64,000 nt of DNA from an uncultured Planctomycetales bacterium (GCA_964638325.1 CAZWYT010000004.1:29308-93307); one strand, 5' to 3'. Counted from the stretch's first letter, positions 15,778-29,934 are shown. The notes: a model not told the origin generated them from the letters alone. Numbers and translations: made by a program.

Positions 15778-16959
15778 CTACTCTTGTCGCAAAGCGCTGA
15801 TCATCCGGACCCGCGCCGCCCGCCAGGCCGGCATGAGTGCCCCGCACGCCCCGACCAGCGCCACCACGCCCAGCGCTGCGGCGACGATGGGCGGCGTCAG
15901 GCGGATATCGAACGCCAGCGTCGTGAAGCTCGTCGTGCCGTACATATCCTTTGTATGCCCCACGAACTCGAGCCACATGCCGCACGCCAGGCACCCGACG
16001 ACTCCGCCGAGCAGCGCCAGCAGCACCGCCTCCAGCACGAACCCGAACAGGATCTGGCCGCGCTTGAAGCCGATCGTACGCAGCATCGCGATCTCGCGCG
16101 TGCGGCCGGCAACCGCCGCGAACATCGTGTTGGCGATTGCGAACACTGCCGCCAGTGCCATGACCGCGACCAGCGCCGCCACAATGAGCAGGTACACGCG
16201 AATGCGGGCGGACTGCTTGTCCCAGTAGTCGCGTTCGGTCTGAGCCGTCATCTCGATGGCCGGGCCGGCGATCTCTTGCACCACGGCCGGCGCGTCGGCC
16301 CCGTCGCGCAACCGCAGCGCCGCGGAGGAGTACATCGTGCGGTTGTACGCGTTCATCAGCGACGGCAGGTAGGCCCAGATCTCACTTTCCAGCGGCCCAC
16401 CAGCGGCGCTGAAGTAGCCCACCACCTTGTAGCCGCGGTTGCTGCCGTAGCCGAGGCTGATCAGGTCGCCGAGCTGCAGACCGCCGAACTGTTGGGCCGT
16501 GCGGAGGCCGACGATGACCTCCTGCCCACCGGTCGAGAACACCGGTCCGAGCGGCTTCACCGTCCGGTGCACGTCAAACGCCCGCAGCGTGACCCCGCGC
16601 ACCGCAACGTTCGCCTGCGTGCGGCCGCCGTCGCGAAGCCGCGGCAGCGAGACCTGCACGATCATCTCGGGGCTCAGCAGGGCGTCGCCGCCCGGCGCGC
16701 GGGCCAGGTCGGTGAGCTGGTTGAGCTTGTTGTAGTCTGCGACGGGCAGCGCGCTGGTCGTCTCGGACGTCGCCCCCCGGCGGATGACGATCAGCTTGCG
16801 GTCGTCACTCGCGACCGAGAGCGAGCTCTCCAGGGCGGCAGCGAAGCCGAGCATCCATGACAGCGTGCCGACCACTGCGGCAATCACCAGCACGGTGAGC
16901 GTGGTCGTCGTCCTGCGAACGAGCAGGCTGCGCCAGTGATACGACAGCGGCAAGGCCAT
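15778..16959 (-). CDS. ABC transporter permease, FtsX/MacB family
   Basis: N-terminal TM, large periplasmic domain, then C-terminal 3-TM FtsX domain (RTREIAMLRTIGFKRGQIL...). 393 aa. Confidence 0.75.
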   Translation of the reverse strand: MALPLSYHWRSLLVRRTTTTLTVLVIAAVVGTLSWMLGFAAALESSLSVASDDRKLIVIRRGATSETTSALPVADYNKLNQLTDLARAPGGDALLSPEMIVQVSLPRLRDGGRTQANVAVRGVTLRAFDVHRTVKPLGPVFSTGGQEVIVGLRTAQQFGGLQLGDLISLGYGSNRGYKVVGYFSAAGGPLESEIWAYLPSLMNAYNRTMYSSAALRLRDGADAPAVVQEIAGPAIEMTAQTERDYWDKQSARIRVYLLIVAALVAVMALAAVFAIANTMFAAVAGRTREIAMLRTIGFKRGQILFGFVLEAVLLALLGGVVGCLACGMWLEFVGHTKDMYGTTSFTTLAFDIRLTPPIVAAALGVVALVGACGALMPAWRAARVRMISALRQE

Positions 16960-17030: not shown

Positions 17031-18200
17031 CTACGCCACCCGGCGCAGCGCGTCCGCGGTTCGCAGCCGCAGCCCCTGGTACGCCGGCCAGAACCCGGCC
17101 ACGATCCCGACGCCCAGCCCGATGGCGAGCGATCCGCCCGCCGCCACCCAGGACAACTGCGGCGAGCTGAAGGATCCCAGCGTCATGTACTTCCGCGGCG
17201 TCAGCACCAACGCCGCGCAGACCGGCATGATCCCCAGCAATGACCCGAGCAGCGCCAGCAGCACGCTCTCCGACAGGACGATGGTGAACACGCGCCACGC
17301 CTGGAAACCGATCGCCTTGAACACCGCCAGCTCGCCGATGCGTTCCCGGAAGCTCATCATCATCGTGTTGCCCGCCACGAGGGCAATGATGAACACCACG
17401 ACGATCGCCATCGTGCGGGCCAGGCTGGGGATGTCGCCGACCGCCTGGATGAAACCGGCGATCAACGCGTTCTCGTCCTCGCTTTTGGTCTCGTTCGGGC
17501 TGTTTGCGAATTGCGTGTCGATTTCGGTCTGCAGCGCGCGCAGCGCCGCAGCGCTGTGGCACTTGACCCAGAAGATGTTGCAGCCGGTGCCGGTCGCGCC
17601 GGCAGCCTCCAGTGAATCGACCAGGTAGTCCCGGCGGAAGTAGAACATGTTCGGCGGGGAGGAGTTCGGGATGATCTTGACGATCTGGAATTCGAGCCGC
17701 TCGTAGGGCGGGATCGTGCTCTCCAGCTCGATGCGCTGCCCGGTCCGCCACCCGTATTGCATCGCCACGCCGTCCCCGACCACCGCCGCCCGGCGGTCGC
17801 GCTGCCACTGGGCGATGTCGTCCGCGCTCATTTGGGCGTCGGCGTACACAATCGGGAACGTGTCGGCGTCGGAAGCGAGGCTCGTCAGCGTGTTCTGCGT
17901 CCCCGGGACGCGCCCGCCGAACCAGCGCATGCCGCACACGGCGACGAGCCGCTGGCGCTGCGGGTCGAGCTCCTCGATTTTCCGCCGCAGGCCGTCGGGC
18001 AGCGAGCTGGTGAGCGAGACCTTGTGCCGCACGCCGAGACGGAGTTGCTTCTCGTTCTTCTCCGCGGTGCGGGCCAGTCCGACGACCAGCGAAAGGGCGA
18101 GCACAAAAATGCCCATCGGCAGCGCGAACGCGACCAAGGTGAGCCCGGTCCGGAGCCGGTTGCGTCTCAGGTTTTGCAGCAGGACGTAGGAGCGCGTCAC
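17031..18200 (-). CDS. ABC transporter permease, FtsX/MacB family (GTG start)
   Basis: The 737-aa ORF 17031..19244 is a read-through artefact. The permease proper begins at GTG 18200 (VTRSYVLLQNLRRNRLRTGLTLVAFAL...) and ends with the FtsX domain (FRERIGELAVFKAIGFQAWRV...). 389 aa by codon count. Confidence 0.7.
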   Translation of the reverse strand: MTRSYVLLQNLRRNRLRTGLTLVAFALPMGIFVLALSLVVGLARTAEKNEKQLRLGVRHKVSLTSSLPDGLRRKIEELDPQRQRLVAVCGMRWFGGRVPGTQNTLTSLASDADTFPIVYADAQMSADDIAQWQRDRRAAVVGDGVAMQYGWRTGQRIELESTIPPYERLEFQIVKIIPNSSPPNMFYFRRDYLVDSLEAAGATGTGCNIFWVKCHSAAALRALQTEIDTQFANSPNETKSEDENALIAGFIQAVGDIPSLARTMAIVVVFIIALVAGNTMMMSFRERIGELAVFKAIGFQAWRVFTIVLSESVLLALLGSLLGIMPVCAALVLTPRKYMTLGSFSSPQLSWVAAGGSLAIGLGVGIVAGFWPAYQGLRLRTADALRRVA

Positions 18201-18223
18201 ACGTGGACTCCGCTTGCGGCGCC

Positions 18224-18940
18224 TCAGCCGCGGGGCGTCGGGGCCATGGGCCGGTTGGTTTCCTCGCGATCGAGCACGCCCTTGTCCAGGTGCAGCACAC
18301 GCCGGCCGTGGGCCGCCGCCCGCGGGTCGTGCGTGACCATTACGATCGTCTTCCCGAACTCGGTGTTCAGCAGCGCCAGCAGTTGCAGGATCTCCTCGGA
18401 GGTCTTCGCGTCCAGGTCGCCGGTCGGCTCGTCGGCCAGGATCACGTCTGGGTCGGTGACGATCGCGCGGGCGATGGCGACGCGCTGCTCCTCCCCGCCG
18501 GAAAGCTGGCTCGGCCGATGGTCCATTCGGTCGGTCAGCCCGACGATCCGCAGCGCGGTCTGGACGCGGCGGCGGCGCTCCCGGCCTGGCATACGGAACA
18601 ACAGCAGCGGCAGCTCGATGTTCTGCGCTGCGGTCAGCACCGGCACCAGGTGGTACATCTGGAAGATAAAGCCGACGTGCCGGCTGCGCCAGGCGGTCAG
18701 CGCGCCTTCGCTCATGCGTTCGAGCTGCGCCTCGCCGACGCGGACCGCGCCGGAGGTCGGCGAGTCCAGCCCGCCGACCACGTGCAGCAGCGTGGACTTG
18801 CCGGAGCCGCTGGGGCCCATGATCGCAAGGAACGAGCCGGCGCCGATCGTCAGCGTCAGGCCGTCCAGGGCCGGAATGTCGATGCGACCCTTGCGATAAT
18901 GCTTGTGTACCTCGACCAGCTCGATGTCGGCTGCGCTCAT
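18224..18940 (-). CDS. ABC transporter ATP-binding protein (MacB/LolD-type)
   Basis: Walker A GPSGSGKST, Q-loop, signature LSGGEEQRVAIARA, Walker B VILADEPTGDLD, H-loop VTHD. Start at ATG 18940 (MSAADIELVEVHK). Confidence 0.85.
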   Translation of the reverse strand: MSAADIELVEVHKHYRKGRIDIPALDGLTLTIGAGSFLAIMGPSGSGKSTLLHVVGGLDSPTSGAVRVGEAQLERMSEGALTAWRSRHVGFIFQMYHLVPVLTAAQNIELPLLLFRMPGRERRRRVQTALRIVGLTDRMDHRPSQLSGGEEQRVAIARAIVTDPDVILADEPTGDLDAKTSEEILQLLALLNTEFGKTIVMVTHDPRAAAHGRRVLHLDKGVLDREETNRPMAPTPRG

Positions 18941-19461
18941 GCTCCGCTCCGGCTTGGCGTCCGGCACCCGAGAGAAATCGGCCGCACGCGATGGGGGGAT
19001 TATAGGGTCGGCAGCCGGCGGAGCCTATGGCGGCTGTGCGCGGGTACCTGGTCCGCTTTGCGGACGGCGCGGCGCTGGGGTGCGAGGAGGAACGCGCTGC
19101 TCGGCGTGGGCTGGAGGTGCTGCCGAGACGCCTCGGTCGCTTCGCCGGCACTGGGTGGTGAGGCGCAAGACCGCCAGCAGCACCGTACCCTGACATAGAA
19201 ATCGCGGGGGCACTACGCGTGTTACAGGTGCACCGGAAACGCACCAGCCATGCGCAGCTTTTTCCGCACGGTCCGCCGCTTGTGGAAAAAGTCGATCGGC
19301 CGCCGCTCTCAGCGTGAACGCGTTACCTGGGAGTCGTGCGAGCGGATGCTAGAGCCCTACCCGCTTCCCCGCCCGGTCGTGGTCCATTCGGTCTACCGTC
19401 GGTTGCCGACCCCGGCATAAGGAGCCGCTTGTGGGAATCCCGCTCGTGCGGACGGGTGGCG

Positions 19462-19553: not shown

Positions 19554-19892
19554 GTGCGCATCGCTCGAAAAACGCAGTTCGCGGTGTGGTGCGCGTTGCT
19601 CGGCGTGCCGTTGCTGGCCGCCCTGCTCTGGCTGGCCAGCGGACGCGAAACACTGACCAAATCCGGCAAAGCCGTGGAGTTTACCGTCCGCGACGAACTT
19701 TTCGGCGACACTCTGGTGGAGCGGCGACTGGTGCCCGGGCCTGTGCTGGGCTACTACGTTGGGCTGGACGTTGTCGCCGTTACTGCGCTCGCCACGCTCG
19801 TCAGCGGCTTCATCTGGCGGCGCGTGACCTCCCATAGTCAACAGCGTGAACCCCCGCGCGAGGTAGGCACGAATGACACCTCGAGAGTCTAA
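19554..19892 (+). CDS. hypothetical small membrane protein
   Basis: 112 aa with two hydrophobic segments (FAVWCALLGVPLLAALLWLA; YVGLDVVAVTALATLVSGFIW). Preceded by hairpin and TATAAT-like box. Confidence 0.3.
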   Translation: MRIARKTQFAVWCALLGVPLLAALLWLASGRETLTKSGKAVEFTVRDELFGDTLVERRLVPGPVLGYYVGLDVVAVTALATLVSGFIWRRVTSHSQQREPPREVGTNDTSRV

Positions 19893-20431: not shown

Positions 20432-21187
20432 ATGGCACTGGGAAAACGCAGCCTCGGGATGAGCCTGGCCGGGCTGGTGGTGCTGCTTGCCGGCCGGCCG
20501 GCACCCGTCGGTGCACAGACGGCGCTGGAGGTCAAGGCGACCGGCAAGAAGACGTTCTACGTCGACGGCCGGGCCGGCAACAACCAGGTCACCGTGCTGA
20601 GCCAGTCGACGCTCGAGGATTTCACCTGCGTTTGCGACAAGGTCATGGGCAAGGGCGAGGTCGACCCCAAGAACATCGAGTCGCTCAGGGGCCGGTTCTC
20701 GCTCCGCGTGGAGGACATCAAAACCGGCATCGACCTGCGCGATCATCACTTGCGCAGCCCGGACTGGCTCGACGCCGCGAAGTACCCCGAAGTCGTGATG
20801 GAGTTCACGGGCATCGAGGACGCCAAGAAGACGGCCCCGAACGAGGCCTCCCTGCTCCTGATCGGCACCTGTGCCGTGAAGGGCAAAACCAACGCGGTGA
20901 AGATCCCGACCACCCTGAGCTTCCTCGACGAGTCGCCCGTCACGATGAAACGCGTCAAAGGCGACTTGCTGCGGGTGCGCTCAGAGTTCAAGCTGAAACT
21001 CTCGGATTATGGCGTGACCGGCCCGCCGGGTTCCGACACGATCGGCCTCAAGGTAGCCGATACGCTCGAGATCAAGGTGACGGTGTTCGGTTCGACCGAG
21101 GCGCCGCCAGCCGCGCTCGAGCCCGACAAGGACGCGCCGGCGACCCAGCCGGTGAAGCCGCCGCCGCCCAAGAAACCGTCGGGCTGA
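20432..21187 (+). CDS. YceI-like periplasmic protein with Pro/Lys-rich C-terminal tail
   Basis: Signal peptide, then YceI-like lipid/polyisoprenoid-binding domain features (DGRAGNNQVTV...LRDHHLRSPDWLDAAKYPEVVMEFTG...IPTTLSFLD). Start at ATG 20432. Confidence 0.65.
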   Translation: MALGKRSLGMSLAGLVVLLAGRPAPVGAQTALEVKATGKKTFYVDGRAGNNQVTVLSQSTLEDFTCVCDKVMGKGEVDPKNIESLRGRFSLRVEDIKTGIDLRDHHLRSPDWLDAAKYPEVVMEFTGIEDAKKTAPNEASLLLIGTCAVKGKTNAVKIPTTLSFLDESPVTMKRVKGDLLRVRSEFKLKLSDYGVTGPPGSDTIGLKVADTLEIKVTVFGSTEAPPAALEPDKDAPATQPVKPPPPKKPSG

Positions 21188-21362: not shown

Positions 21363-22760
21363 ATGAGCGGCTGGACGATACGCGCACAGTGGGTCGCCCT
21401 GGTGGGGGCGGTGTGGCTGGCCGGCGGCTGCGCCACGAATCCGGCGGGACCCAAAGTGGAGTTCCCGCCCGCGCCGCAGTTCCCGCCGGACCATCCATAC
21501 ACGCTCGACGAGCTCATTCAGCTTTCGATTCACCGCAACGCCGGCCTGGATGTAGCCCGCCACGAGGCAGAAGCCGCCCAGGGGCTGGTGGACCAGGTCA
21601 AGGCGCTGTGGCTGCCCTCGGTGCGGTACGACTTCGCCGCCACCGCGTACGACAACGACCTGAATTACAAGGTCCGCGCGTTGCATCTTGCCACCATTAA
21701 CGTGCCGCTCACCGGCTCGTTCAACATCATCAATTCGCTGAACCTGTCGCAGATCGTCGCCACCGGCGGCAAGCGCACCAGCGGGCTCAAGCAGGCCAAG
21801 ATGTACGCCGCGATCAAGCGACTCGAGGTGCAGCGTCAGCAGGACGCGGTCGCGCAGGACGTCACGACCTACTATCAGTTGGTCTGCCTGACCAGCGAGA
21901 TCGACGCGGTTCTGGACGACACGGTGCGGCGGATTCGCGTCTTCCGGCAGGTGGCGGAGAACCTGAACCAGCGCGGCTCGCTGCGGGCCAGCGACCTTGA
22001 TTACCTGCAGGCCGACTACTTCGTGTCGCAGCTCGACCAGTTCCGCCTGGCGCTCCAGACCGGCCGGCACCAGGCCTACACGGCCCTGAAGCAGACGGTC
22101 GGCGTCGGGCGTGACGAGCGGATGTTGCTCAAGTCGGTCGAACTGCCGCCGGCCGTCACGATGCCGGAATTGGTGAGCGCGTATGCCTCGATCGTGAAGG
22201 GCTTTCTCGGCCGGCCCGAAACGCATGAGGTCGATTTGTTCGCCCGGCTGCGGGCCGAGCAGGTCAATTTCGCCAAGGCCCAGTACGCGCCGAACGTGGC
22301 GTTCACGTTCGAGGCGATCAACACGCAGGGCGCGCACAACACGATTCTGAACGCTCTCGACGGCCTGATCGCCGGTTTCATCGTCGACGTGCCGATCTAC
22401 GATCCGGCGCGCCGCGGGAAGCTGCGCGAAGCGCTGGGCCTCGAGCAGGCCGCCCTTGCATTCCAGCGACAGGTCGAGGAGCTGATCACGCTGGAGATCG
22501 AGGTCACCGCGGTCGAAGGCCAGCGCGCCCTGGTGACCGTGTTTCAGGCCGAACGAGCCGAGCGCGTCGCCGCGGCTCATTACGAGGCCGCCCGCCAGGC
22601 CTACAGTCGTGAGTTGGTGCCGGCCTCAGCGGTCGTCACCGCGATTGCCTTCGACATGCTCGCCAAGATTCAGCATTTGCAGGCGGTGTTCGCTTACCAA
22701 AACGCCCGCGCCAAGCTGAACCGCGTGACGGCGGAACGGGAGGCGCCGTATGGCTATTAG
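21363..22760 (+). CDS. TolC-family outer membrane efflux protein
   Basis: Lipoprotein-like N-terminus (LAGGCATN), two tandem halves each with coiled-coil/beta-strand patterns typical of TolC/OprM family (LDELIQLSIHRNAGLDVARHEAEAAQGLVDQVKALWLPSV ...). Confidence 0.7.
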   Translation: MSGWTIRAQWVALVGAVWLAGGCATNPAGPKVEFPPAPQFPPDHPYTLDELIQLSIHRNAGLDVARHEAEAAQGLVDQVKALWLPSVRYDFAATAYDNDLNYKVRALHLATINVPLTGSFNIINSLNLSQIVATGGKRTSGLKQAKMYAAIKRLEVQRQQDAVAQDVTTYYQLVCLTSEIDAVLDDTVRRIRVFRQVAENLNQRGSLRASDLDYLQADYFVSQLDQFRLALQTGRHQAYTALKQTVGVGRDERMLLKSVELPPAVTMPELVSAYASIVKGFLGRPETHEVDLFARLRAEQVNFAKAQYAPNVAFTFEAINTQGAHNTILNALDGLIAGFIVDVPIYDPARRGKLREALGLEQAALAFQRQVEELITLEIEVTAVEGQRALVTVFQAERAERVAAAHYEAARQAYSRELVPASAVVTAIAFDMLAKIQHLQAVFAYQNARAKLNRVTAEREAPYGY

Positions 22761-24321
22761 GCACGACTTCGAGCCGTCCGTAATGCCAACTCGTGGCCGG
22801 CGGAGGCGCCCGATTCGCATTGTGGCACTGGCGGATGGCCGGTGCCCGCACGGGCCACTACCCCGTGCGGCGATTCGGCGGACAGCGGGGCTGTTGATAA
22901 ACGGGTACAGGCACCTCGCCAGCGCACGTTTTCGCCAGCAGCAAACGAGTCGGGCTCGGAGCCAGTCCCCGTTTTTCAACCGTCCTACAGCCCCGCAACG
23001 GTCATGGTGGGTTGCGACATTCTCAGCCATTGCGGCGCTGCTGCCAGCGAGCTGCACGACTCCGTCACCGACGACAACCACACAAACCGCTGCCGCAACC
23101 GCCGCCCCGACCAGCGCCCCAGCTTCACAGCCGACCGTCGTCTACGACACCACCCTGCCACGCCCGGTCCCGCCGCGCGACTGGCTCGAACGCCTCGCCC
23201 AGGACCGGGGGGCCGATCTCCGGCTGATCGATCGTCTGGTCGACCAGCACACCGAGCCGCCGCCATTCGAGCGCAAGTCCCTGCCACCGCGTCCACCCGA
23301 TGCGCAGATCGCCGAGGGCGTCGCACTGCTGGCGGATACGGACCCGTTCGTGCCCGAGCCGGCTCTGGAGCCGAAAGAGGCCACCATTCGCGTGGCCCTG
23401 CTGCGCTCGACCTACAAGACCCGCGAGCGCGAGGAGGTGCTCGCCGCTGCGCAGCCCTTCATCGACCTCGTGCAGCGCGAGGTGAACGTGCGCGGCGCGC
23501 CGGACCTGCTGGAGACGCCCGATGAGGCGTTTTATGCACTCACCGAAGGCAAAGACCAGATGCTCATCAGCCACGTCTTCGACTATCTGCTGATTCATAG
23601 CTGGTTCGCCGACGTACCCAACAACGGGAGCGTGCTCCTCGGCTGGGCCGAGCCCGCCCATGCCCGCACGGCCGACCTCGACCGCAACCTGCCCGGCGTC
23701 CCCGGCACCTCGCTGGAGCTGGTCGTCGCCGCGGACTCGCCGTACGAGAGCTTCGCCGACCTGCGCGGCAAGCGACTGGCCCTGGCGGCCAACGACACGT
23801 GCGGCCCCGGCACGGTCCTCACGCGCCTGCTCGCCGACGCCGGCCAGCCGAAAGACCAGCCCTTCTTCGGCCGCGTGACCTTGCGGCGGTACCCGAAGGA
23901 CGTGGTCATTGACGTCCTCAAGGGTCAGGCGGACGCCGCGTGCGTCGATCAGGGCACGATCGGGGCGGTGACGCGCTTCTACGGCGTGGGCAGCAAGCTG
24001 CGGACACTCGCCGTCTCGCCGCGCTACAACATGGACGTGCTCTACACCAGCGTGAACAACCTCGCCACGCACCGCACGGAGATCGAGCTGACGCAGCGGC
24101 AACTCAACACGCTCGGCAAGAACCCCGAGGGGCAGGAAGTCCTGTTCTTCTTCGACGAGGCCGGGTGGCATTTCTACCGCGAAGGCGACATCCTCGTGGC
24201 CCGCGCGAACTTCGCTGATTTCGTCAAGTTCCTGAACGAGACGCCGGTCGACCTGCGCCCGCTGCTCGACCCGCACGCCCCCGTCGACCGCCACACCTAC
24301 GATCGCTACGGCGACGAGTAG
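22750..24321 (+). CDS. PhnD/SsuA-like periplasmic substrate-binding protein (phosphonate/phosphite-binding fold); true start uncertain
   Basis: C-terminal ~300 aa match ABC-type phosphonate-binding protein architecture (IRVALLRSTYKTRE...GKRLALAANDTCGPGTVLTRLLADAG...ADAACVDQGT). The first ~90 aa are Arg-rich and likely an ORF-caller extension. Lipobox-like LLPASC near aa 100. Confidence 0.5.
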   Translation: MAIRHDFEPSVMPTRGRRRRPIRIVALADGRCPHGPLPRAAIRRTAGLLINGYRHLASARFRQQQTSRARSQSPFFNRPTAPQRSWWVATFSAIAALLPASCTTPSPTTTTQTAAATAAPTSAPASQPTVVYDTTLPRPVPPRDWLERLAQDRGADLRLIDRLVDQHTEPPPFERKSLPPRPPDAQIAEGVALLADTDPFVPEPALEPKEATIRVALLRSTYKTREREEVLAAAQPFIDLVQREVNVRGAPDLLETPDEAFYALTEGKDQMLISHVFDYLLIHSWFADVPNNGSVLLGWAEPAHARTADLDRNLPGVPGTSLELVVAADSPYESFADLRGKRLALAANDTCGPGTVLTRLLADAGQPKDQPFFGRVTLRRYPKDVVIDVLKGQADAACVDQGTIGAVTRFYGVGSKLRTLAVSPRYNMDVLYTSVNNLATHRTEIELTQRQLNTLGKNPEGQEVLFFFDEAGWHFYREGDILVARANFADFVKFLNETPVDLRPLLDPHAPVDRHTYDRYGDE

Positions 24322-24426
24322 TCGCGCGGCGCAAAGCCCCAGGTGCCCGCGCGGGCAAGAGCTGCCCTAAGGCCGGCATGCTTGGAGCGTCCGCTTGAGG
24401 CCATCCGTGCCCATGCCGGCGGCAGA

Positions 24427-25611
24427 TTACGCCACGCGCAGTGCGTCGACCACCGGCATCCGGCTGGCAGCGCGCGCCGGCCAGAAGCCGCCGAGCACGC
24501 CGATCGCAGCTGCGACAGCCAGCGAAAGCGCAAGGTTCGCCCCCGAGAGATCCACGCGGAAAGCAACGGAGGTGAACGTGGCCGATCCCACCAGGTCCTT
24601 GGTCCCCCGATCGAGCAGGATCACCGCGGCGCACGTGGCACAGCCGATCATCCCGCCGACGACCGCAAGGAGCAACGATTCGGTTAGAATCCCGAGCATG
24701 ATGCGCGGGGCGGAGAACCCGATCGCCCGCAGCATGCCGATCTCGTGCGTCCGGCCTGTCACCGCGGCGTGCATCGTGTTCATCGCCGCGAACACCGCCC
24801 CGGCTCCCATGATGAAGACCAGCCCGAGCGCCAGCACCTCGAGCACGCGTGCGTTCGCGCCCTGACTCGCGAAGTAGTCCGGTTCCGGCACTGCCCGCAG
24901 CGCGATGCCCGCGGAGGCGATCCGCTCATTTGCCTCCGCGAGCGCCGTCCGGTCGGCCGATTGCAGCCGCACCGTGGCACTGGAGTACGCCTTGCGCCGA
25001 TATGCGTCGGCCACGTTTGCGAAGTAGCCCCACAGCTCGCTCTCATGGACCCCGCCGGCGGCGCGAAAGATGCCGACGATCGTGAACGTGCGCTCACCGC
25101 ACTCCACTTCGGAGCCGATCGTCGCGTTTGCGAACTGCCGGGCGGCCGCCGCGCCGACGACCAGCTCGTCCGTACCGGCGTGGAACCAGCGGCCCGCGAC
25201 CCGCTCCGTGCCCCCGTGAACCGGCAGCGCCACTTCCGGATCGACACCACGCACGACCACACTCGCGGGCGCGCGCGACGGATCCCCGCGCCGCCAAACG
25301 TTGGTCTGGACGACGAACTCGGGCGACACCAGGGCTTGCCCAGCGGCGTTCCGCGCGACGTGGGGTATGCCCTCCAGCTTGTGTAGATCGTCGCGAAAAA
25401 TCACGCTGTTACTTTCCGCGGTCGCCGCCTCGGCCAGGACGATTACATTGCGCGGATCGCCGCTGCGCGCCAGCGCCCGGCGCAGCCCGTCCGCAAAGCA
25501 CTGCAGATAGCAGAACACCGCCACGACCAGGCCGACCCCCAACACCGTGAATGCGCTCCGCACGCCCCGGATACGGAGATTCTGAAGCTGGTAGCGCAGG
25601 TTCAGGATCAT
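24427..25611 (-). CDS. ABC transporter permease, FtsX/MacB family
   Basis: MILNLRYQLQNLRIRGVRSAFTVLGVGLVV... N-terminal TM, periplasmic domain, C-terminal FtsX 3-TM domain (VTGRTHEIGMLRAIGFSAPRIM...). Confidence 0.7.
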   Translation of the reverse strand: MILNLRYQLQNLRIRGVRSAFTVLGVGLVVAVFCYLQCFADGLRRALARSGDPRNVIVLAEAATAESNSVIFRDDLHKLEGIPHVARNAAGQALVSPEFVVQTNVWRRGDPSRAPASVVVRGVDPEVALPVHGGTERVAGRWFHAGTDELVVGAAAARQFANATIGSEVECGERTFTIVGIFRAAGGVHESELWGYFANVADAYRRKAYSSATVRLQSADRTALAEANERIASAGIALRAVPEPDYFASQGANARVLEVLALGLVFIMGAGAVFAAMNTMHAAVTGRTHEIGMLRAIGFSAPRIMLGILTESLLLAVVGGMIGCATCAAVILLDRGTKDLVGSATFTSVAFRVDLSGANLALSLAVAAAIGVLGGFWPARAASRMPVVDALRVA

Positions 25612-25624
25612 TGGCCCGGGTGCC

Positions 25625-26794
25625 TCATGCTTCTTCCCGCAGGGCCGTCGTCGCGGACAACCGCGCCACGCGCCGCAGCGGCACCAGCCCGGCCAGCATG
25701 CCCACGAGAACGCCGACCCCGACTGCGAGCCCCACGACGGCCGGCGACACGCTCACCAGCGGGAAATAGGGCATACTCAGCCCGGCTGCGGGCGACCCGC
25801 CGAACGCGATCAGTGCCGGGACGCAGCCGAGCAGCGCGCCGCTGAGCCCCAGCAGGGTGGATTCGCCGAGCACGAGCCAAAGAAGGCGCGCGGACGAGAA
25901 GCCCAGCGCCTTGAGGACCGCCAGCTCGCGCGTCCGCTCGCGGATGGTCATCGACATCGTGTTGCCGACTACGAGCAGAATCGACGCCACGACGACCAGC
26001 CCCGCGCTGTTCAGCATCCGCGGAATGTCGCCAAACATCTTCGTGAACTGTGCGACAAAGGACTCCTCCAGCTCCGTCCGGGTTGCGTCCGGCGACTGCG
26101 CGAAGAGCGCATCGATCGCCCCGCGCGCCGCCTCCAGGGCCGCTGGCGTGGCCGTTTTCGCCCAGAAGAAGTTGACGCCGTCATAGTAGTACGGCGGCAG
26201 CTCGGGACCGACTTTTAGCGCGTCCAGCAGGTAGTCCAGCCGCAGCACGAAGAGATTCGGGTATGCCTGTGCTGCCGTCACGCCGACGATGTGGAATTCG
26301 AGCAGCGGATACGGCGGAATGCCGGCCCGCAGCGTCACACGCTGGCCGCGCGTCCAGCCCATCCGCTGGGCCAGTCCAGCGCCCACGATGGCGGCGGTGC
26401 GCTCTGCACGCCACGCGTCCAGCTCAGCGTCGCGCAGCTCGAAGTCGGCATACACGGCGGGAAACGTCTCCGGCTGCGCCGCCAGCGACGGGAACTGTGC
26501 GCTGCCGTTCGGCACGCGTCCGCCAAACCAGCGCACCGCGCAGACCGCTTGCACGCCCGGCACGGCGGCGATCTTCGGCCCGTGCCCCAGCGGCAGCAGC
26601 TTGGTCATCGTGGTCTTCTGCTGTACAACCAGCCGGAGCTGGCTGGCCGACCGGTCCGCGACCGTCTGCATGGACACGACGACGGCCCGCAGCATCGTGA
26701 ACAGGAACAGCGACACCGCGACGGAGCCGATCGTCAGGCCGGTACGGACCTTGTTCCGCCAGAGGTTGTGCCAGATTACCGTGCGGCTGGTCAC
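25625..26794 (-). CDS. ABC transporter permease, FtsX/MacB family (GTG start overlapping PKS stop: GTGA)
   Basis: FtsX domain at C-terminus (IRERTRELAVLKALGFSSARLL...). GTG 26794..26792 overlaps the TGA 26793..26791 of the upstream type III PKS, indicating translational coupling. Confidence 0.7.
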   Translation of the reverse strand: MTSRTVIWHNLWRNKVRTGLTIGSVAVSLFLFTMLRAVVVSMQTVADRSASQLRLVVQQKTTMTKLLPLGHGPKIAAVPGVQAVCAVRWFGGRVPNGSAQFPSLAAQPETFPAVYADFELRDAELDAWRAERTAAIVGAGLAQRMGWTRGQRVTLRAGIPPYPLLEFHIVGVTAAQAYPNLFVLRLDYLLDALKVGPELPPYYYDGVNFFWAKTATPAALEAARGAIDALFAQSPDATRTELEESFVAQFTKMFGDIPRMLNSAGLVVVASILLVVGNTMSMTIRERTRELAVLKALGFSSARLLWLVLGESTLLGLSGALLGCVPALIAFGGSPAAGLSMPYFPLVSVSPAVVGLAVGVGVLVGMLAGLVPLRRVARLSATTALREEA

Positions 26795-27927
26795 GGGCGT
26801 GCGTGGTCGATGTCGAGGAGCACCATCTCGATCGTCAGCCCGGGGCCGAACGCCATCGCGACACACCGCCCCGCGGGCCGGGTCTCGAAGAGCTCCTTCA
26901 TGATAAAGAGAATCGTCGGCGAGGACATGTTGCCGTAGCGCCGCAGCACAGAACGCGACAGCGCCAGCGCATTTTCGGGCAGTTTCAGCGCCTCCTGCAC
27001 GCTGTCCAGGATCTGCGGCCCGCCGGGGTGCACGAGCCAGTGGTCAATCTCCGCGACGGAAGTCCCGTTGTCGGCCAGGCATTTCGTGACGACCCCCGGT
27101 ACGCTCTCAGCCAGGGTGTCCGGCAGGTCCTGCGACAGCTCCAGCCGCAAGCCATGATCGTCCGCAAACCAGACCATCTGCCCGGCCTTCTCGGGCACGC
27201 TCGCGCACCGGCAATCCACGACTCGCACGGCCGAGACCGTCGGAGAAAGCGTCATTGCCGCCGCCCCGTCCGCGAAGAGCACGTTCGCCGTGAGTTGGTC
27301 CAGCCTGTCGGTGTACTGGAAGTGCAGCGACGACAGCTCGCACGCGACGATCAGCGCTTCGCGCTCTGCGTCGGCCATCTGGTGCAGCAGCCGCATCGCC
27401 GCCAGCGCGCCGGAGCACCCCATGAACCCCAGATTCCACCGATCGACGCTCGGCCGCACCGCCGTCCGCGTCAAGACCGGGTGCTCCAGTCCCGGTGCCG
27501 AGGCGTGCGTGCAACTGACCGTCACCAGGGTGTCGACGCGGGCCAGCGACTCGGCCGAGAATCCGTCCAGCACCTTTCCCACCAGCGGCCCCGACACTTT
27601 CTGAAACAGCTCCGTGCGCGCCCCCATGCCCGGACCCCCGGGCTGCTCCGCGGGCGCCCGGTACAATGCTTCCGCGCCGTACGGGCCAAAGCGCGGGTCC
27701 ATCGCCGCCAGGTAACGCCGCTCAATCCCGGTCAGACGAACAATGCGTGGCAATAGTCGCGGCGTACGCGGATCGCGGCACGTGAGCTTGAACAGGTCGA
27801 CCGACTGCTGCGGGCCGAGCGAATGGTCCGGGACGGCGGTGCCGATGTTCTGAACGTAGCAGGCTGTTGTGAGACGCTTACTCAAGCGCAGACCTTTATG
27901 TCCCCGCGTGTACCCAGCTAACGACAT
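26791..27927 (-). CDS. type III polyketide synthase (chalcone/stilbene synthase superfamily; SrsA/alkylresorcinol-synthase-like)
   Basis: Catalytic triad contexts present: GFMGCSGALAAMR (Cys), WLVHPGGPQILD (His), YGNMSSPTILFIM (Asn). Length ~378 aa. Confidence 0.85.
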   Translation of the reverse strand: MSLAGYTRGHKGLRLSKRLTTACYVQNIGTAVPDHSLGPQQSVDLFKLTCRDPRTPRLLPRIVRLTGIERRYLAAMDPRFGPYGAEALYRAPAEQPGGPGMGARTELFQKVSGPLVGKVLDGFSAESLARVDTLVTVSCTHASAPGLEHPVLTRTAVRPSVDRWNLGFMGCSGALAAMRLLHQMADAEREALIVACELSSLHFQYTDRLDQLTANVLFADGAAAMTLSPTVSAVRVVDCRCASVPEKAGQMVWFADDHGLRLELSQDLPDTLAESVPGVVTKCLADNGTSVAEIDHWLVHPGGPQILDSVQEALKLPENALALSRSVLRRYGNMSSPTILFIMKELFETRPAGRCVAMAFGPGLTIEMVLLDIDHARP

Positions 27928-29002
27928 TCGCCAGCGCCGGTCGCGGCAGCACGGCCGGTCCCGCGGCGAGCCAATGGATCAGCCCGCTCCGCAGCACGCG
28001 GCTGATGCAGCGCAAACGCCGCGTCGCCGGACGATGATGGCGGCGCATGAGCAGCGTGTAGTGTCGGAGGACATCGCCAGCACGGCGGCCGGCCGAAATC
28101 GCGCGCGCTGCACACACCCCGCTGCACAACGCCTGCCCGATACCCTCGCCGGAAAACGGCTCCTCGTAACCCGCTGCGTCGCCGACCAGCAGCACATTCC
28201 GGTCGCCGAGCCGCTGCGGCGTCCACGGAAAACCGGCGGTGCCCTTCGCGCCGTACCGCTGGAGCGCCTCCTCGGAGAGCACCGACCAGACCGGCGTGTC
28301 GGGATTCAGGGTTCGCAGCCGCTGCCACGCAGTCTGTCCGCCGGACTCCGGAACCTCGGCCCCGAGCGCGACCACGCAGTGCTCCGGCGCCGGCGTCGCG
28401 AGCCCGACGTATCCGCTCCGCAACCAGTGCATTTCGACGCTGCCGAGCGTGGGCAAGCCCGGCCCCGGCGGCTGAATCCACTGCTGCGCAATCATCCGGC
28501 GTTTCTGCGGCAGACCCTCGATGCCCAGTTTGCCGGCGAGGCCGCCCAGCCCCGACGCGACGAGGATCATCTGCGCCCGAATACGCTCCGCGCCGACCCG
28601 TACCACCCAACGAACGTCTTCGCGCACGAGCTCTGCTGGTTGTCCGTAGCGCGCTGCAGCGCCTCCGGCGGCCGCTGCATCGGCCAGACGCGCGTCGAGT
28701 TCGGAGCGCAGGACCAGGCGCGTCTTGCCGCACGGGCGGCACGTCAGCCGATAAGAGCCGATGACGAAGGTGATGGTTTCGCCTGGCACGCCCGGTAGGG
28801 GCCGGCTCGTGCCCAGTAGTTCCCGCAAGCGCTTCGTCGCGCGCCCGGAAAGGCACCCGCCGCACACCTTCTGGCGAGGGAAGTGCTTTTTCTCGATCAG
28901 CAGCGCGCTCCGCCCGGCGCGCGCCAACTCGATCGCTGCGGCCGAGCCCGCTGGCCCGGCCCCGATGATCGCGACTTCCACGTCCGCCCGGGTTACCGGC
29001 AT
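27896..29002 (-). CDS. FAD-dependent oxidoreductase (geranylgeranyl-reductase/PHBH-fold flavoprotein)
   Basis: VAIIGAGPAGSAAAIELARAG Rossmann GxGxxG at N-terminus, LVGDAAGY motif. 3' end overlaps PKS start by 32 nt. Start at ATG 29002 chosen over 29107. Confidence 0.7.
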   Translation of the reverse strand: MPVTRADVEVAIIGAGPAGSAAAIELARAGRSALLIEKKHFPRQKVCGGCLSGRATKRLRELLGTSRPLPGVPGETITFVIGSYRLTCRPCGKTRLVLRSELDARLADAAAAGGAAARYGQPAELVREDVRWVVRVGAERIRAQMILVASGLGGLAGKLGIEGLPQKRRMIAQQWIQPPGPGLPTLGSVEMHWLRSGYVGLATPAPEHCVVALGAEVPESGGQTAWQRLRTLNPDTPVWSVLSEEALQRYGAKGTAGFPWTPQRLGDRNVLLVGDAAGYEEPFSGEGIGQALCSGVCAARAISAGRRAGDVLRHYTLLMRRHHRPATRRLRCISRVLRSGLIHWLAAGPAVLPRPALANVVSWVHAGT

Positions 29003-29214
29003 TGCTGCTCCTGCGGCGGTGCTGCGGATCCTACGCTCCCGGCCAATGGTTAATGTCCCGACATTATAGGCGCCTTGCATTGCGCCGGGGGCCCGCGTTT
29101 CCCGCACGTGGGCTCACGATTACTCCGGCCAAAGCCTTGGCGATCAGCCGAGACAGTTCCAGAGCAGTGGCGCAAGGTCGCCCGCCCTCAGCAAGTGAGA
29201 CTAGAATCGCAGCA

Positions 29215-29934
29215 ATGGCTTCTGTGTTTGACATCGCGCAGCGTACCCGCGAACCGGAACTCATGGACGACCCCGGCCTGGAAGAGCGCCGCCACCAGTG
29301 CGCCCTGCGCGGGCTGGCACGGATCAACCGCTGGAGCCGTAGCGCCGCGAGCCTTTGGCGTGCGCTCCGCGTCGGGCTTCGCAGGGGTACGGGCGCGGCG
29401 CGCGTGCTGGACGTGGCCACCGGCGCCGGGGACATCCCGATTGGCCTGTGGCGCTACGCGCGCCGGAGGGGGTGGCGGCTCGAGATTGACGGCTGCGATA
29501 CCAGCACGCGGGCGCTGGACTATGCGCGGGCGCAGGCAGCCGCCGGCGGTTCCCGCGTGCGGTTCTTTCAGCTCGACGTGCTGCGCGACGAGCTGCCAAC
29601 CGGTTACGACGCGGTCATCAGCTCATTGTTCCTGCACCATCTTGATGACGAACAAGCGGTGTGCGTGCTCCGCAAGATGGCTACGTCGACCCGGACCCTG
29701 GTCCTCGTCAACGACTTGCGGCGCGACTGGCTCGGGTTCGTGCTGGCGTGGTGCGGCAGCCGCACGTTGACGCGGTCGGACGTCGTCCACGTCGACGCGC
29801 CACGCTCCGTGCAGGCGGCGTTCACGTGGGCGGAGCTGCACGCGCTCGCCGAAGACGCCGGGCTCTCCGGAGCCACCGTGCGGCGTTGCTGGCCGCGCCG
29901 TCTGCTGCTCGTGTGGCGCCGTCCTTTGACGTGA
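29215..29934 (+). CDS. class I SAM-dependent methyltransferase
   Basis: Motif I VLDVATGAGDIPIGL, acidic motif II FQLDVL, motif III ISSLFLHHL. Divergently transcribed from the oxidoreductase-PKS operon. Confidence 0.7.
   Translation: MASVFDIAQRTREPELMDDPGLEERRHQCALRGLARINRWSRSAASLWRALRVGLRRGTGAARVLDVATGAGDIPIGLWRYARRRGWRLEIDGCDTSTRALDYARAQAAAGGSRVRFFQLDVLRDELPTGYDAVISSLFLHHLDDEQAVCVLRKMATSTRTLVLVNDLRRDWLGFVLAWCGSRTLTRSDVVHVDAPRSVQAAFTWAELHALAEDAGLSGATVRRCWPRRLLLVWRRPLT

What the first reader, a model, noticed from the sequence alone, without database searches (positions are those of the whole stretch)
24427..29934. Compact srs-like type III PKS cluster, translationally coupled to two ATPase-less FtsX/MacB permeases
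Four minus-strand genes form one tightly packed unit: FAD oxidoreductase (29002..27896), type III PKS (27927..26791), FtsX permease (26794..25625), FtsX permease (25611..24427). The oxidoreductase overlaps the PKS start by 32 nt. The PKS TGA overlaps the permease GTG (GTGA). The second permease follows after 13 nt. A class I SAM methyltransferase is divergent (29215..29934), and a PhnD-like binding protein converges on the permeases. PKS plus flavoprotein plus O-methyltransferase matches the SrsABC alkylresorcinol/alkylquinone (phenolic lipid) logic, but direct coupling to MacB/LolCE-type permeases with no ATPase in the operon is unusual. These permeases normally power extraction or extrusion of lipidic cargo across the envelope. 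The product could therefore be an exported or outer-leaflet phenolic lipid. The only MacB-type ATPase in the window (18224..18940) sits in a separate locus that also has two permeases.
Basis: partly seen in the sequence, partly recalled or inferred. Interest (0 to 1): 0.8.

Follow-up and report, generated by a model that had tools for sequence, protein, structure and literature searches.

The report
Phenolic-lipid synthase operon with envelope-export genes
An uncultured Phycisphaerae (Planctomycetota) bacterium has fused the known alkylresorcinol-type lipid-making gene set to a LolCE-like membrane extractor and a small set of periplasmic and outer-membrane lipid-handling genes, which points to an undescribed route for moving phenolic lipids to the cell surface.

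Summary
FAD oxidoreductase, type III PKS and two MacB/LolCE-type permeases form one tight minus-strand unit, with a divergent methyltransferase. The one correction is the PKS start, which is most likely TTG 27885 (364 aa), so the 32-nt overlap is probably a 10-nt gap.

The biosynthetic core is the known planctomycetal/cyanobacterial MT–oxidoreductase–T3PKS alkylresorcinol cassette (hid/srs logic). The new part is the linkage.

- The PKS-stop/permease-start 4-nt overlap recurs in 8 diverged loci.
- The permease orthogroup (about 45 clusters) is almost always found directly after this PKS.
- A convergent four-gene operon is the only other recurrent neighbour (14 of 45 clade loci). It encodes a small 2-TM protein, a YceI lipocalin, an OEP lipoprotein and a lineage-specific PhnD-like lipoprotein that is a fold relative of the sterol carrier BstB.

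Lacking an ATPase in the operon is the norm, but one relative (L004) has PKS–ATPase–permease–permease. That ATPase is 63% identical to the window's only ABC ATPase, which sits in a paralogous ATPase–permease–permease–HlyD operon 5.5 kb away.

Best reading: a dedicated ATP-driven route that extracts and traffics a phenolic lipid to the outer membrane or cell exterior. The chemistry and the transport are inferred, not shown.

The parts
29215..29934 (+). Class I SAM methyltransferase (239 aa), divergent from the PKS operon
   Evidence: Pfam Methyltransf_25. NCBIfam NF004851/PRK06202 scores 224 bits, just under its cut-off of 243. The same divergent position recurs in L001, L081, L082, L092 and the P0016 contig at 54-56% identity.
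27896..29002 (-). FAD-dependent oxidoreductase (368 aa), geranylgeranyl-reductase / flavin-monooxygenase superfamily; first gene of the operon
   Evidence: Pfam FAD_binding_3 and DAO. TIGR02032 at E 4e-33, below its cut-off. Found directly upstream of the PKS at 50-61% identity in most clade loci.
26791..27885 (-). Type III polyketide synthase (364 aa; start TTG 27885 preferred over ATG 27927)
   Evidence: Chal_sti_synt_N/C. C157/H286/N319 are invariant. Homologues are 364 aa, including a 97%-identical one called from the TTG. The closest solved structures are the long-chain acyl-primed mycobacterial PKS18 and PKS11.
25625..26794 (-). FtsX_A: LolE/MacB-like type VII ABC permease (389 aa, 4 TM plus periplasmic MacB_PCD); its GTG overlaps the PKS TGA
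   Evidence: AF2 model pLDDT 87.6. Foldseek best hits are LolE, Spr0694-0695 and MacB. The orthogroup of about 45 clusters is almost always found directly after this PKS.
24427..25611 (-). FtsX_B: second, non-identical type VII ABC permease (394 aa); presumed heterodimer partner of FtsX_A
   Evidence: MacB_PCD plus FtsX. Only the C-terminal membrane (FtsX) region aligns with FtsX_A (33% identity over 116 aa, E 1e-9), but FtsX_B always follows it. PDB sequence hits are Spr0694-0695, YtrF, MacB and LolC.
22750..24321 (+). PhnD-like (PF12974) periplasmic protein, probable lipoprotein (candidate lipobox LLPAS-C102), convergent on the permeases; the true start may be TTG 22894
   Evidence: It belongs to a narrow family: 106 clusters in 5.8e9 proteins and about 19 representatives with E<1e-30 in 1.84e9. 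AF2 pLDDT 84. Fold matches are AioX, ArrX, PhnD and the sterol carrier BstB 7T1M. The gene is linked to the PKS cassette in several different arrangements.
21363..22760 (+). TolC/OEP-family outer-membrane factor with lipobox (LAGG-C); overlaps the PhnD-like ORF by 11 nt
   Evidence: Pfam OEP with 2 repeats, E 5e-23. TIGR01844 gives a weak hit. The N-terminus was read. The OEP/PhnD-like pair, with the same 11-nt overlap, recurs in L083 and the P0016 contig.
20432..21187 (+). YceI-family periplasmic lipocalin with a signal peptide (MALGKRSLGMSLAGLVVLLAG...)
   Evidence: Pfam YceI at 68.6 bits against a cut-off of 23.7. N-terminus read. Conserved next to the OEP in L005, L008, L033, L034, L083, L086-L088, L092 and the P0016 contig.
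19554..19892 (+). Small conserved 2-TM protein (112 aa, no Pfam family); first gene of the accessory operon
   Evidence: No Pfam hit. Two hydrophobic segments. tblastn finds it immediately upstream of YceI in L008, L033, L034, L083, L086 and L087.
18224..18967 (-). LolD/MacB-type ABC ATPase, the only ABC ATPase in the 64-kb window; candidate energiser in trans for FtsX_A/B
   Evidence: ABC_tran and TIGR02211 LolD at E 3e-68. No other ATPase hit in the window. It is 63% identical to the ATPase that sits between the PKS and FtsX_A in L004 and 72% to the L093 ATPase, against 46% or less to other ABC ATPases in the loci.
17031..18200 (-). FtsX_D: paralogue of FtsX_A (41% identity)
   Evidence: GC3 0.92 in this frame. 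Translation. Pairwise blastp.
15778..16959 (-). FtsX_C: paralogue of FtsX_B (39% identity)
14222..15457 (-). HlyD-family membrane-fusion protein that closes the paralogous ATPase-D-C-MFP operon
   Evidence: Pfam HlyD_D23 and HlyD_3. The L093 orthologue is 52% identical.

Best explanation
The locus combines a phenolic-lipid biosynthetic cassette with a dedicated cell-envelope trafficking module.

Proposed sequence of events:
1. The type III PKS primes on a long-chain fatty acyl thioester and adds three malonyl units to make an alkylresorcinol (or alkylpyrone).
2. The flavoprotein and the methyltransferase tailor the ring, giving a hierridin- or alkylquinone-like product. This product partitions into the cytoplasmic membrane.
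3. FtsX_A and FtsX_B form a LolCE-like heterodimeric type VII ABC permease. It is powered by a LolD-like ATPase encoded elsewhere; in this genome the likely candidate is the ATPase at 18224-18967. Like LolCDE, it uses mechanotransmission to extract the lipid from the periplasmic leaflet.
4. The YceI lipocalin and/or the PhnD-like lipoprotein carry the lipid across the wide planctomycetal periplasm.
5. The OEP lipoprotein receives it at the outer membrane or releases it outside the cell.

Shown: gene identities, domain architecture, folds, and conserved, rearrangement-resistant linkage including translational coupling. Inferred: the product structure, the direction and cargo of transport, which protein hands cargo to which, and the sharing of the ATPase.
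For: Gene identities.

Linkage:
- The same FADOR-PKS-FtsX_A-FtsX_B unit, facing PhnD-like-OEP-YceI-small ORF, occurs in L001/L085, L082, L086, L087, L088, L092 and the P0016 contig. PKS identity there is only 59-69%.
- The PKS stop/FtsX_A start 4-nt overlap is conserved in 8 loci.
- All-vs-all clustering of ORFs in 39 clade loci finds these accessory families as the only recurrent neighbours besides MT and FADOR.
- The accessory operon is linked to the cassette in three different arrangements: convergent after the permeases; convergent directly after the PKS (L005, L008, L033, L083); and co-directional upstream (L034, L003).
- In the reverse direction, 17 of 45 FtsX_A orthologues and at least 14 PhnD-like proteins sit on the same contigs as top PKS hits, judged by matching contig lengths.

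Permease type and energy source:
- The permeases are LolE/MacB-like by fold and keep the FtsX coupling-helix motif.
- L004 has PKS-ATPase-FtsX_A-FtsX_B, with the start of the ATPase gene overlapping the PKS stop codon as TGATG.
- L093 shows one ATPase gene serving two permease pairs plus an MFP.

Precedents for the carriers and the pathway:
- YceI proteins crystallise with octaprenylphenol or ubiquinone-8 bound (PMC9113575).
- Planctomycetal T3PKSs from MT-OR-PKS operons make C15/C17 alkylresorcinols. The 'S. ferox' operon also carries a lipoprotein and a lipid/isoprenoid-binding protein.
- DevCA-DevB-TolC exports polyketide-like heterocyst glycolipids (PMC5985334).
Against: - There is no experimental datum for this clade.
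- The PKS is only 36-38% identical to PKSs in Pirellulales MT-OR-PKS operons, so the product (resorcinol or pyrone, and chain length) is inferred.
- Most clade loci (about 31 of 45) have the cassette without any accessory gene nearby, and only about 9 have the permeases. Export genes are therefore either dispensable or encoded elsewhere.
- No membrane-fusion protein is conserved in the locus, so a classical MacAB-TolC duct is not supported.
- The PhnD-like fold matches oxyanion binders and sensor partners (AioX, ArrX, PtxB) at least as well as BstB, and there is no sequence-level match to any solved protein.
- One FtsX_A/B orthologue pair (L091) lacks an adjacent PKS.
- ATPase sharing rests on 63% identity and proximity in a single genome. 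The ATPase locus is not near the PKS locus in the other genomes.
Confidence: 0.55

Rival explanations
1. Self-protection or secretion pump. The permeases, a trans-encoded ATPase (possibly with the neighbouring HlyD) and the OEP form a MacAB-TolC-like efflux system. It expels a bioactive, hierridin-like phenolic lipid into the medium. YceI and the PhnD-like protein act as scavengers or chaperones. The lipid is a secreted allelochemical, not an envelope constituent.
For: - An OEP/TolC-family gene is conserved in the module.
- In this window an HlyD gene and an ATPase lie within 10 kb, and their operon is divergent from the accessory operon.
- MacB-family tripartite pumps export siderophores, glycolipids and toxins.
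- Hierridins are bioactive.
- YceI/BcnA lipocalins sequester hydrophobic antibiotics.
Against: - No MFP is conserved with the PKS-linked permeases in any other genome.
- C15-C17 alkylresorcinols are very hydrophobic and would stay membrane-bound.
- A soluble lipocalin plus a lipoprotein carrier fits a Lol- or Bst-style shuttle better than a sealed duct.
Confidence: 0.25
2. Sensing or regulation rather than transport. The PhnD-like protein is a ligand sensor of the AioX/ArrX type. The FtsX_A/B pair is a BceAB- or FtsEX-like mechanotransmitter that controls a periplasmic partner or signalling, and thereby couples phenolic-lipid synthesis to an envelope cue.
For: - The top fold matches of the PhnD-like model are the sensor-partner binding proteins AioX and ArrX.
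- Many type VII ABC systems work in sensing or enzyme activation.
- L083 has a response-regulator gene beside the MT.
Against: - No histidine kinase or regulator is conserved in the locus.
- The FtsX_A fold matches LolE and MacB with a full Porter+Sabre domain much better than BceB or FtsX.
- A sensing model does not explain the co-conserved OEP and YceI.
Confidence: 0.08
3. The neighbours are functionally unrelated: a generic orphan MacB-type permease pair and an unrelated envelope operon that happen to lie next to a T3PKS cassette.
For: - Orphan FtsX-type permeases without an adjacent ATPase are common. The ADOP family TIGR03434 is among the hits; its 'orphan' meaning is recalled from the model description.
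- Most clade loci lack the accessory genes.
- L084 has the OEP/PhnD-like pair without a PKS, and L091 has the permeases without a PKS.
Against: - The 4-nt PKS/permease overlap persists at 59-69% PKS identity.
- The permease orthogroup is found almost exclusively after this PKS.
- The accessory operon keeps its linkage through three different arrangements, while all other neighbours vary.
Confidence: 0.07

Closest known systems
Planctomycetal mtr-fdo-t3pks operon / cyanobacterial hidABC (hierridin) / Streptomyces srsABC
   Same: It shares the three enzyme types: a type III PKS with the Cys-His-Asn triad, an FAD oxidoreductase and a SAM methyltransferase. The oxidoreductase lies directly upstream of the PKS. 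The expected product is a long-chain alkylresorcinol derivative (srsABC is from my own knowledge).
   Different: - The MT is divergent here rather than first in the operon.
- The PKS is only 36-38% identical to Pirellulales operon PKSs, and the oxidoreductase only 27-31%.
- None of the published descriptions read here mention permease, ABC, export or outer-membrane genes.
- Here the PKS is translationally coupled to a permease.
LolCDE lipoprotein-release system
   Same: It is a heterodimer of two different 4-TM permeases, each with a MacB-type periplasmic domain. The ATPase is a separate LolD-like protein. LolE gives the best fold matches. The predicted action is extraction of a lipidic cargo from the outer leaflet and hand-over to a soluble periplasmic carrier.
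   Different: It is not an orthologue: TIGR02212 scores 36 and 25 bits against a cut-off of 362. The cargo is presumed to be a small phenolic lipid, not a lipoprotein. The candidate carriers are YceI and a PhnD-like protein rather than LolA/LolB. The ATPase is not in the operon.
DevBCA-HgdD(TolC) heterocyst glycolipid exporter of Anabaena
   Same: It is a MacB-family ABC system with a TolC-type outer-membrane factor, dedicated to moving a PKS/FAS-derived envelope lipid and encoded near the lipid's biosynthetic genes.
   Different: DevBCA has a single permease type, an in-operon ATPase (DevA) and an obligatory MFP (DevB). Here there are two permease types, no conserved MFP or ATPase, and additional YceI and PhnD-like components.
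BstABC sterol trafficking proteins of Methylococcus capsulatus
   Same: A PF12974 (PhnD-fold) periplasmic protein is encoded with lipid-biosynthesis genes and proposed to shuttle a hydrophobic lipid from the inner to the outer membrane. BstB (7T1M) is among the best structural matches to the PhnD-like protein.
   Different: The inner-membrane partner there is an RND/MMPL protein (BstA), not a type VII ABC permease, and the outer-membrane partner is a TatT-like protein (BstC), not an OEP. The protein here has about 110 extra N-terminal residues and a lipobox. There is no detectable sequence similarity to BstB.
YceI/BcnA bacterial lipocalins
   Same: It has a PF04264 domain and a signal peptide. 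Family members bind long-chain prenyl-phenols or quinones in a beta-barrel tunnel.
   Different: The usual genomic partner is a cytochrome b561 (LcoA). Here the upstream partner is a small 2-TM protein with no recognisable haem ligands, and the operon continues into the OEP and PhnD-like genes.

Membership tests
Type III polyketide synthase (chalcone synthase superfamily) | Chal_sti_synt_N and Chal_sti_synt_C domains above the Pfam gathering score | tested here: met
   45.4 and 89.8 bits against cut-offs of 27.
Type III polyketide synthase (chalcone synthase superfamily) | Catalytic Cys-His-Asn triad | tested here: met
   C157 (GFMGCS), H286 (VHPGG) and N319 (YGNMSS) are invariant in 34 aligned homologues.
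Alkylresorcinol synthase (ArsB/SrsA/HidC function) | Long-chain acyl starter and aldol cyclisation to a resorcinol ring | not testable with these tools
   Support is by analogy only. The closest solved structures are the long-chain acyl-primed PKS18 and PKS11. Planctomycetal enzymes from MT-OR-PKS operons make C15/C17 resorcinols, but they are only about 36-38% identical to this PKS.
hidABC-type three-gene operon | Co-directional order methyltransferase - oxidoreductase - PKS | tested here: not met
   In the window the MT is on the opposite strand. The co-directional order does occur in many sister loci such as L002, L007-L013 and L083, where the MT is only 34-41% identical to the window's.
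Type VII ABC transporter permease (MacB/LolCE type) | Four TM helices with a large periplasmic Porter+Sabre domain (MacB_PCD) between TM1 and TM2, followed by an FtsX domain | tested here: met
   Both Pfam domains score above their cut-offs in FtsX_A and FtsX_B. Hydrophobic segments fit the topology. The AF2 model matches LolE, Spr0694-0695 and MacB best.
Type VII ABC transporter (complete system) | A cognate LolD/MacB-type nucleotide-binding subunit | tested here: inconclusive
   None is present in the window's PKS operon or in 7 orthologous loci. It is present in-operon in L004. A 63%-identical ATPase lies 5.5 kb away in the window. The rest of the genome cannot be inspected.
LolC/LolE (lipoprotein release) orthologue | Score above the TIGR02212 equivalog cut-off | tested here: not met
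   36.3 and 24.7 bits against a cut-off of 362.
Cell-division FtsX | Score above the TIGR00439/NF038347 cut-offs; a short extracellular domain lacking Sabre | tested here: not met
   31 and 56 bits against a cut-off of 255, with only the C-terminal TM region aligned. FtsX structures rank 36th or lower in the fold search.
MacAB-TolC-type tripartite efflux pump | A membrane-fusion (HlyD/MacA) adaptor encoded with the permease | tested here: not met
   No MFP is present in the conserved PKS-linked module in any locus. HlyD occurs only in the paralogous D/C operon of this window.
MacAB-TolC-type tripartite efflux pump | An outer-membrane factor (OEP/TolC family) | tested here: met
   Pfam OEP at E 5e-23 with a lipobox, conserved in the module.
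PF12974 PhnD/BstB-type periplasmic binding protein | Bilobed type-2 periplasmic-binding-protein (PBP) fold and a Pfam hit above cut-off | tested here: met
PF12974 PhnD/BstB-type periplasmic binding protein | Ligand class (oxyanion or lipid) | not testable with these tools
   Model coordinates could not be inspected, and there is no sequence-level alignment to solved members.
YceI lipocalin | PF04264 domain above cut-off and secretion to the periplasm | tested here: met
   68.6 bits against a cut-off of 23.7. An N-terminal signal-like sequence is present.

The most novel reading that the evidence does not exclude
Phycisphaerae build part of their outer membrane or surface from type III PKS-derived phenolic lipids, using a previously unknown trans-envelope pathway. 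The cytosolic PKS is made stoichiometrically with a LolCE-like permease pair, and possibly docks onto it. The permease pair has given up its own ATPase gene. It hands the lipid to a YceI lipocalin and a BstB-like PhnD-fold lipoprotein, which deliver it to a TolC-family lipoprotein without any membrane-fusion adaptor. This would be the first dedicated small-lipid 'Lol-like' shuttle for polyketide lipids, and a new job for three well-known protein families.
Probability: 0.2. Interest if true: 0.8.

Novelty: new variant of a known kind. Interest (0 to 1): 0.55.

Why it matters
Alkylresorcinol-type phenolic lipids are widespread in Azotobacter cysts, Streptomyces, cyanobacteria and planctomycetes. 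Two things remain open: how they leave the cytoplasmic membrane, and what they do in planctomycetes. The 2024 planctomycete study concluded that their natural function differs from that in other producers, and it did not consider transport.

A conserved, translationally coupled link between the synthase and a LolCE-like extractor, a quinone/phenol-binding lipocalin, a BstB-like carrier and an outer-membrane factor gives a concrete, testable route and a likely destination at the envelope or surface. It would also widen the known cargo range of type VII ABC transporters, YceI proteins and PF12974 proteins. In addition it gives genome miners a signature for exported polyketide lipids.

Tried and rejected
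- Exact-sequence look-ups of the window's PKS and permease found no source contig.
- The 443-aa ORF at 16969-18300 was first taken as the second permease of the ATPase locus. It has no family hit and the wrong GC3 pattern, so it was replaced by 17031-18200.
- The sigma-70 promoter and terminator scan of 19000-30200 gave nothing above shuffled expectation, so it says nothing about internal promoters.
- Rfam and tRNA scans found no RNA element in the locus.
- I looked for shared operator-like motifs between the divergent intergenic regions and found only GC-rich chance 10-mers. The one clean palindrome (29051-29066) is not conserved in other loci.
- A profile of the PhnD-like family found no solved structure by sequence, even at E<=1.
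- The Band_7 gene and the 244-aa ORF to the right of the MT, and the 157-aa ORF to the left of HlyD, are not conserved neighbours. The flanking isoamylase, adenylosuccinate lyase and Cys/Met PLP enzyme genes are housekeeping.
- Full-text searches for T3PKS+YceI and for alkylresorcinol+FtsX returned nothing. The one alkylresorcinol+MacB paper concerns cyst germination expression.

Full report
**Observation.** The window is 64-70% G+C. The minus strand between 24427 and 29002 carries four consecutive genes, and their frames are supported by GC3 values of 0.81-0.87.
- An FAD oxidoreductase (29002..27896; Pfam FAD_binding_3/DAO, NCBIfam geranylgeranyl-reductase superfamily).
- A type III PKS (stop at 26791; Chal_sti_synt_N/C).
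- Two permeases, each with MacB_PCD and FtsX domains (26794..25625 and 25611..24427).

The PKS TGA overlaps the GTG of the first permease (GTGA), and the second permease follows after 13 nt. A class I methyltransferase is divergent (29215..29934), and a PF12974 'PhnD-like' ORF converges on the permeases.

One correction is needed. The nearest homologues are 364 aa, and a 97%-identical protein was called from the same TTG. The PKS therefore most likely starts at TTG 27885, 10 nt after the oxidoreductase stop, rather than at ATG 27927 with a 32-nt overlap.

**The PKS and the organism.** In an alignment of 34 homologues, Cys157, His286 and Asn319 are invariant within the GFMGCS, HPGG and GNMSS motifs. 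The closest solved structures are the long-chain acyl-primed mycobacterial PKS18 and PKS11. The named homologues are from Phycisphaerae and Planctomycetota metagenome-assembled genomes, so the window most likely comes from an uncultured member of Phycisphaerae.

The combination of methyltransferase, FAD oxidoreductase and type III PKS is already published for Planctomycetota. It was found for 58 of 96 PKS genes. The enzymes made C15/C17 alkylresorcinols in C. glutamicum, and the operon is related to cyanobacterial hidABC (PMC10896814). That paper and a cyanobacterial type III PKS survey mention no ABC, permease, export or outer-membrane genes. The only hint is that the 'Saltatorellus ferox' operon starts with a lipoprotein and a lipid/isoprenoid-binding protein.

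**What surrounds the four genes.** The plus strand from 19554 to 24321 carries a second operon that converges on the permeases.
- A small 2-TM protein (19554-19892; no Pfam family).
- A YceI lipocalin with a signal peptide (20432-21187).
- A TolC/OEP-family outer-membrane factor with a lipobox (21363-22760).
- The PhnD-like protein, overlapping the OEP gene by 11 nt. It is probably a lipoprotein and has a Thr/Pro-rich linker.

Further left, and divergent from the small ORF across 590 nt, lies a complete paralogous ABC system. It comprises a LolD-like ATPase (18224-18967), FtsX_D (17031-18200; the true frame sits inside a spurious 737-aa ORF), FtsX_C (15778-16959) and an HlyD adaptor (14222-15457). 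FtsX_A is 41% identical to D and FtsX_B is 39% identical to C, whereas A and B align only over their C-terminal membrane regions. Both systems therefore use a heterodimer of two distinct permease types, as LolCDE does.

**Is the linkage conserved?** I fetched 80 genome loci with a PKS profile, 6 metagenome loci with a permease profile and several contigs by exact protein look-up. I then mapped the window's proteins onto them.

- The arrangement FADOR-PKS-FtsX_A-FtsX_B facing PhnD-like-OEP-YceI-small ORF recurs in L001/L085, L082, L086, L087, L088, L092 and the P0016 contig. PKS identity in these loci is only 59-69%.
- The 4-nt PKS-stop/permease-start overlap (GTGA or ATGA) is kept in eight loci.
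- Every FtsX_A orthologue retrieved through the permease itself lies directly after a PKS wherever the contig reaches far enough.
- In the protein database the FtsX_A orthogroup is small, about 45 clusters at 52% identity or more. Identity then drops sharply to the D-type paralogues at 40-42%. Seventeen of the 45 share a contig length with a top PKS hit.
- The accessory operon is more widely distributed than the permeases, occurring in 14 of about 45 clade loci. It appears in three arrangements: convergent after the permeases; convergent directly after the PKS (L005, L008, L033, L083); and co-directional upstream of MT-FADOR-PKS (L034, L003).
- An all-against-all clustering of ORFs from 39 clade loci shows these families are the only recurrent neighbours apart from MT and FADOR.

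There are exceptions. L084 has the OEP/PhnD-like pair without a PKS. L091 has FtsX_A/B without a PKS, although only 2.2 kb upstream is available. L081 carries remnants of the module beside a transposase. The flanks of the window locus (isoamylase, Band_7, adenylosuccinate lyase and others) are not conserved.

**The missing ATPase.** Seven orthologous loci, like the window, have no ATPase in the operon. L004, however, reads PKS-ATPase-FtsX_A-FtsX_B, with the ATPase start overlapping the PKS stop as TGATG. That ATPase is 63% identical to the window's only ABC ATPase and 59% to the L093 ATPase. The window and L093 ATPases are 72% identical to each other, and unrelated ABC ATPases in the loci score 46% or less. 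L093, the orthologue of the window's D/C operon, has one ATPase gene followed by four permeases and one MFP, so one ATPase serving two permease pairs has a genomic precedent.

Both permeases keep the FtsX-domain coupling-helix motif (RER..ELAVLKA.G). The AF2 model of FtsX_A (pLDDT 87.6) matches LolE, Spr0694-0695 and MacB best, and cell-division FtsX only from rank 36. NCBIfam scores are far below the cut-offs for LolCE, MacB and FtsX. The permeases are thus a separate branch of type VII ABC permeases with LolE-like architecture. I conclude they are ordinary ATP-dependent permeases whose ATPase gene has usually moved out of the operon. In this genome the neighbouring paralogous operon is the best candidate donor. 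That last step is inference.

BstB is the periplasmic 4-methylsterol-binding protein proposed to shuttle sterols to the outer membrane in Methylococcus (PMC10942540). That is a precedent for a PhnD-fold lipid carrier encoded next to lipid-biosynthesis genes. YceI-family lipocalins crystallise with octaprenylphenol, octaprenyl phosphate or ubiquinone-8 in their barrel (PMC9113575). These ligands are chemically close to a long-chain alkylresorcinol or alkylquinone.

**Mechanism proposed.**
- *Shown:* enzyme and transporter identities, folds, and conserved linkage and coupling.
- *Inferred:* the PKS, oxidoreductase and MT make a tailored long-chain phenolic lipid. FtsX_A/B, with a trans-encoded LolD-like ATPase, extract it from the periplasmic leaflet by mechanotransmission, as LolCDE does for lipoproteins and DevCA-DevB-TolC does for heterocyst glycolipids (PMC5985334). 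YceI and/or the PhnD-like lipoprotein ferry it across the periplasm. The OEP lipoprotein receives or releases it at the outer membrane.

I put this reading at about 0.55. The main rival (0.25) uses the same parts as an efflux or secretion pump for a bioactive lipid. A sensing or regulatory role (0.08) and coincidental adjacency (0.07) are less likely. No kinase or regulator is conserved in the locus, and the linkage survives rearrangement.

**Weaknesses.**
- There is no experimental datum for this clade.
- PKS identity to characterised planctomycetal operons is only 36-38%.
- Most clade loci lack the accessory genes within 10 kb.
- No MFP is conserved in the locus.
- The PhnD-like fold is at least as close to oxyanion binders as to BstB.

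**Comparison and novelty.** The biosynthetic core is a member of a known kind (hid/srs/planctomycetal alkylresorcinol cassette), although its gene order differs. The permeases work like LolCE or MacB but fail the equivalog tests for LolC/E, MacB and FtsX. The module as a whole consists of a translationally coupled PKS-permease pair plus the small TM protein, YceI, OEP and PhnD-like operon, with no MFP and usually no ATPase. It is not described in the literature I could search. I rate it a new variant of a known kind, of moderate interest (0.55). It offers a concrete, testable answer to how bacterial phenolic lipids reach the envelope, and a possible new cargo class for three protein families. 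The chemistry and the transport remain to be demonstrated.

Noticed in passing
window 14222-18967 (-): A complete paralogous type VII ABC system (LolD-like ATPase, FtsX_D, FtsX_C, HlyD) is transcribed divergently from the accessory operon across a 590-nt intergenic region (18967-19554). With it, the window holds ATPase, MFP, OEP, carriers, two permease pairs and the PKS cassette in one 15.7-kb stretch. This adjacency was not seen in the other genomes.
   Followed up: partly
window 16969-19244: Mechanical ORF lists mislead here. The real FtsX_D gene (17031-18200) is hidden inside a 737-aa ORF that reads through the ATPase region in another frame, and a 443-aa wrong-frame ORF overlaps it. GC3 analysis resolved this.
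   Followed up: yes
window 29051-29066: A perfect 16-bp palindrome, TAATGTCCCGACATTA, lies in an AT-rich patch of the FADOR/MT divergent intergenic region. It is unique in the window (expected 0.01 by chance), which suggests an operator. The core was not found in any of the 93 fetched loci.
   Followed up: partly
window 19892-20432: A gap of about 540 nt separates the small 2-TM ORF from YceI. In L083 the gene calls show the two genes overlapping; the spacing in the other loci was not checked. The gap contains the only sigma-70-like match of the region (20358-20387). Its content was not analysed.
   Followed up: no
L093 9244-15996: The orthologue of the window's ATPase-D-C-HlyD operon carries four FtsX-type permeases (two pairs) between one ATPase gene and one MFP gene.
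   Followed up: partly
L004 11104-15862: This is the only locus with an ABC ATPase between the PKS and FtsX_A. The permeases are followed by a GT87-family membrane glycosyltransferase, and its MT and a different-type FADOR (31% identity) lie upstream on the other strand.
   Followed up: partly
L081 11100-12500; L092 9370-10004: There are signs of decay. L081 has fragments of the PhnD-like and YceI genes next to a DDE transposase directly after the PKS. L092, a long-read assembly, has the whole module but with a PKS split into 118- and 80-aa pieces, which may be sequencing frameshifts.
   Followed up: no
L091 2213-9851: FtsX_A/B orthologues (55% identity) have no PKS within the 2.2 kb available upstream. 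They are followed by a T2SSE-type secretion ATPase and two Band_7/SPFH genes.
   Followed up: no
clade loci L002-L040: Two distinct methyltransferase types and two oxidoreductase types are mixed across the clade. The MT types are about 50-56% versus 34-41% identical to the window's, and the oxidoreductase types 50-61% versus 27-32%. They occur in at least three gene orders, which suggests repeated swapping of tailoring enzymes. L020, L023 and L024 have an aldehyde dehydrogenase upstream of the PKS.
   Followed up: partly
one search hit table: Many JGI records name these type III PKS homologues 'prepilin-type processing-associated H-X9-DG protein'. This is evidently a propagated mis-annotation.
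   Followed up: no
window 5017-5111: ARAGORN calls a 95-nt tRNA-Val(GAC) here, but Rfam's tRNA model does not report it at gathering threshold. It may be a false positive or an unusual tRNA. tRNA-Pro at 38505-38579 is found by both tools.
   Followed up: no
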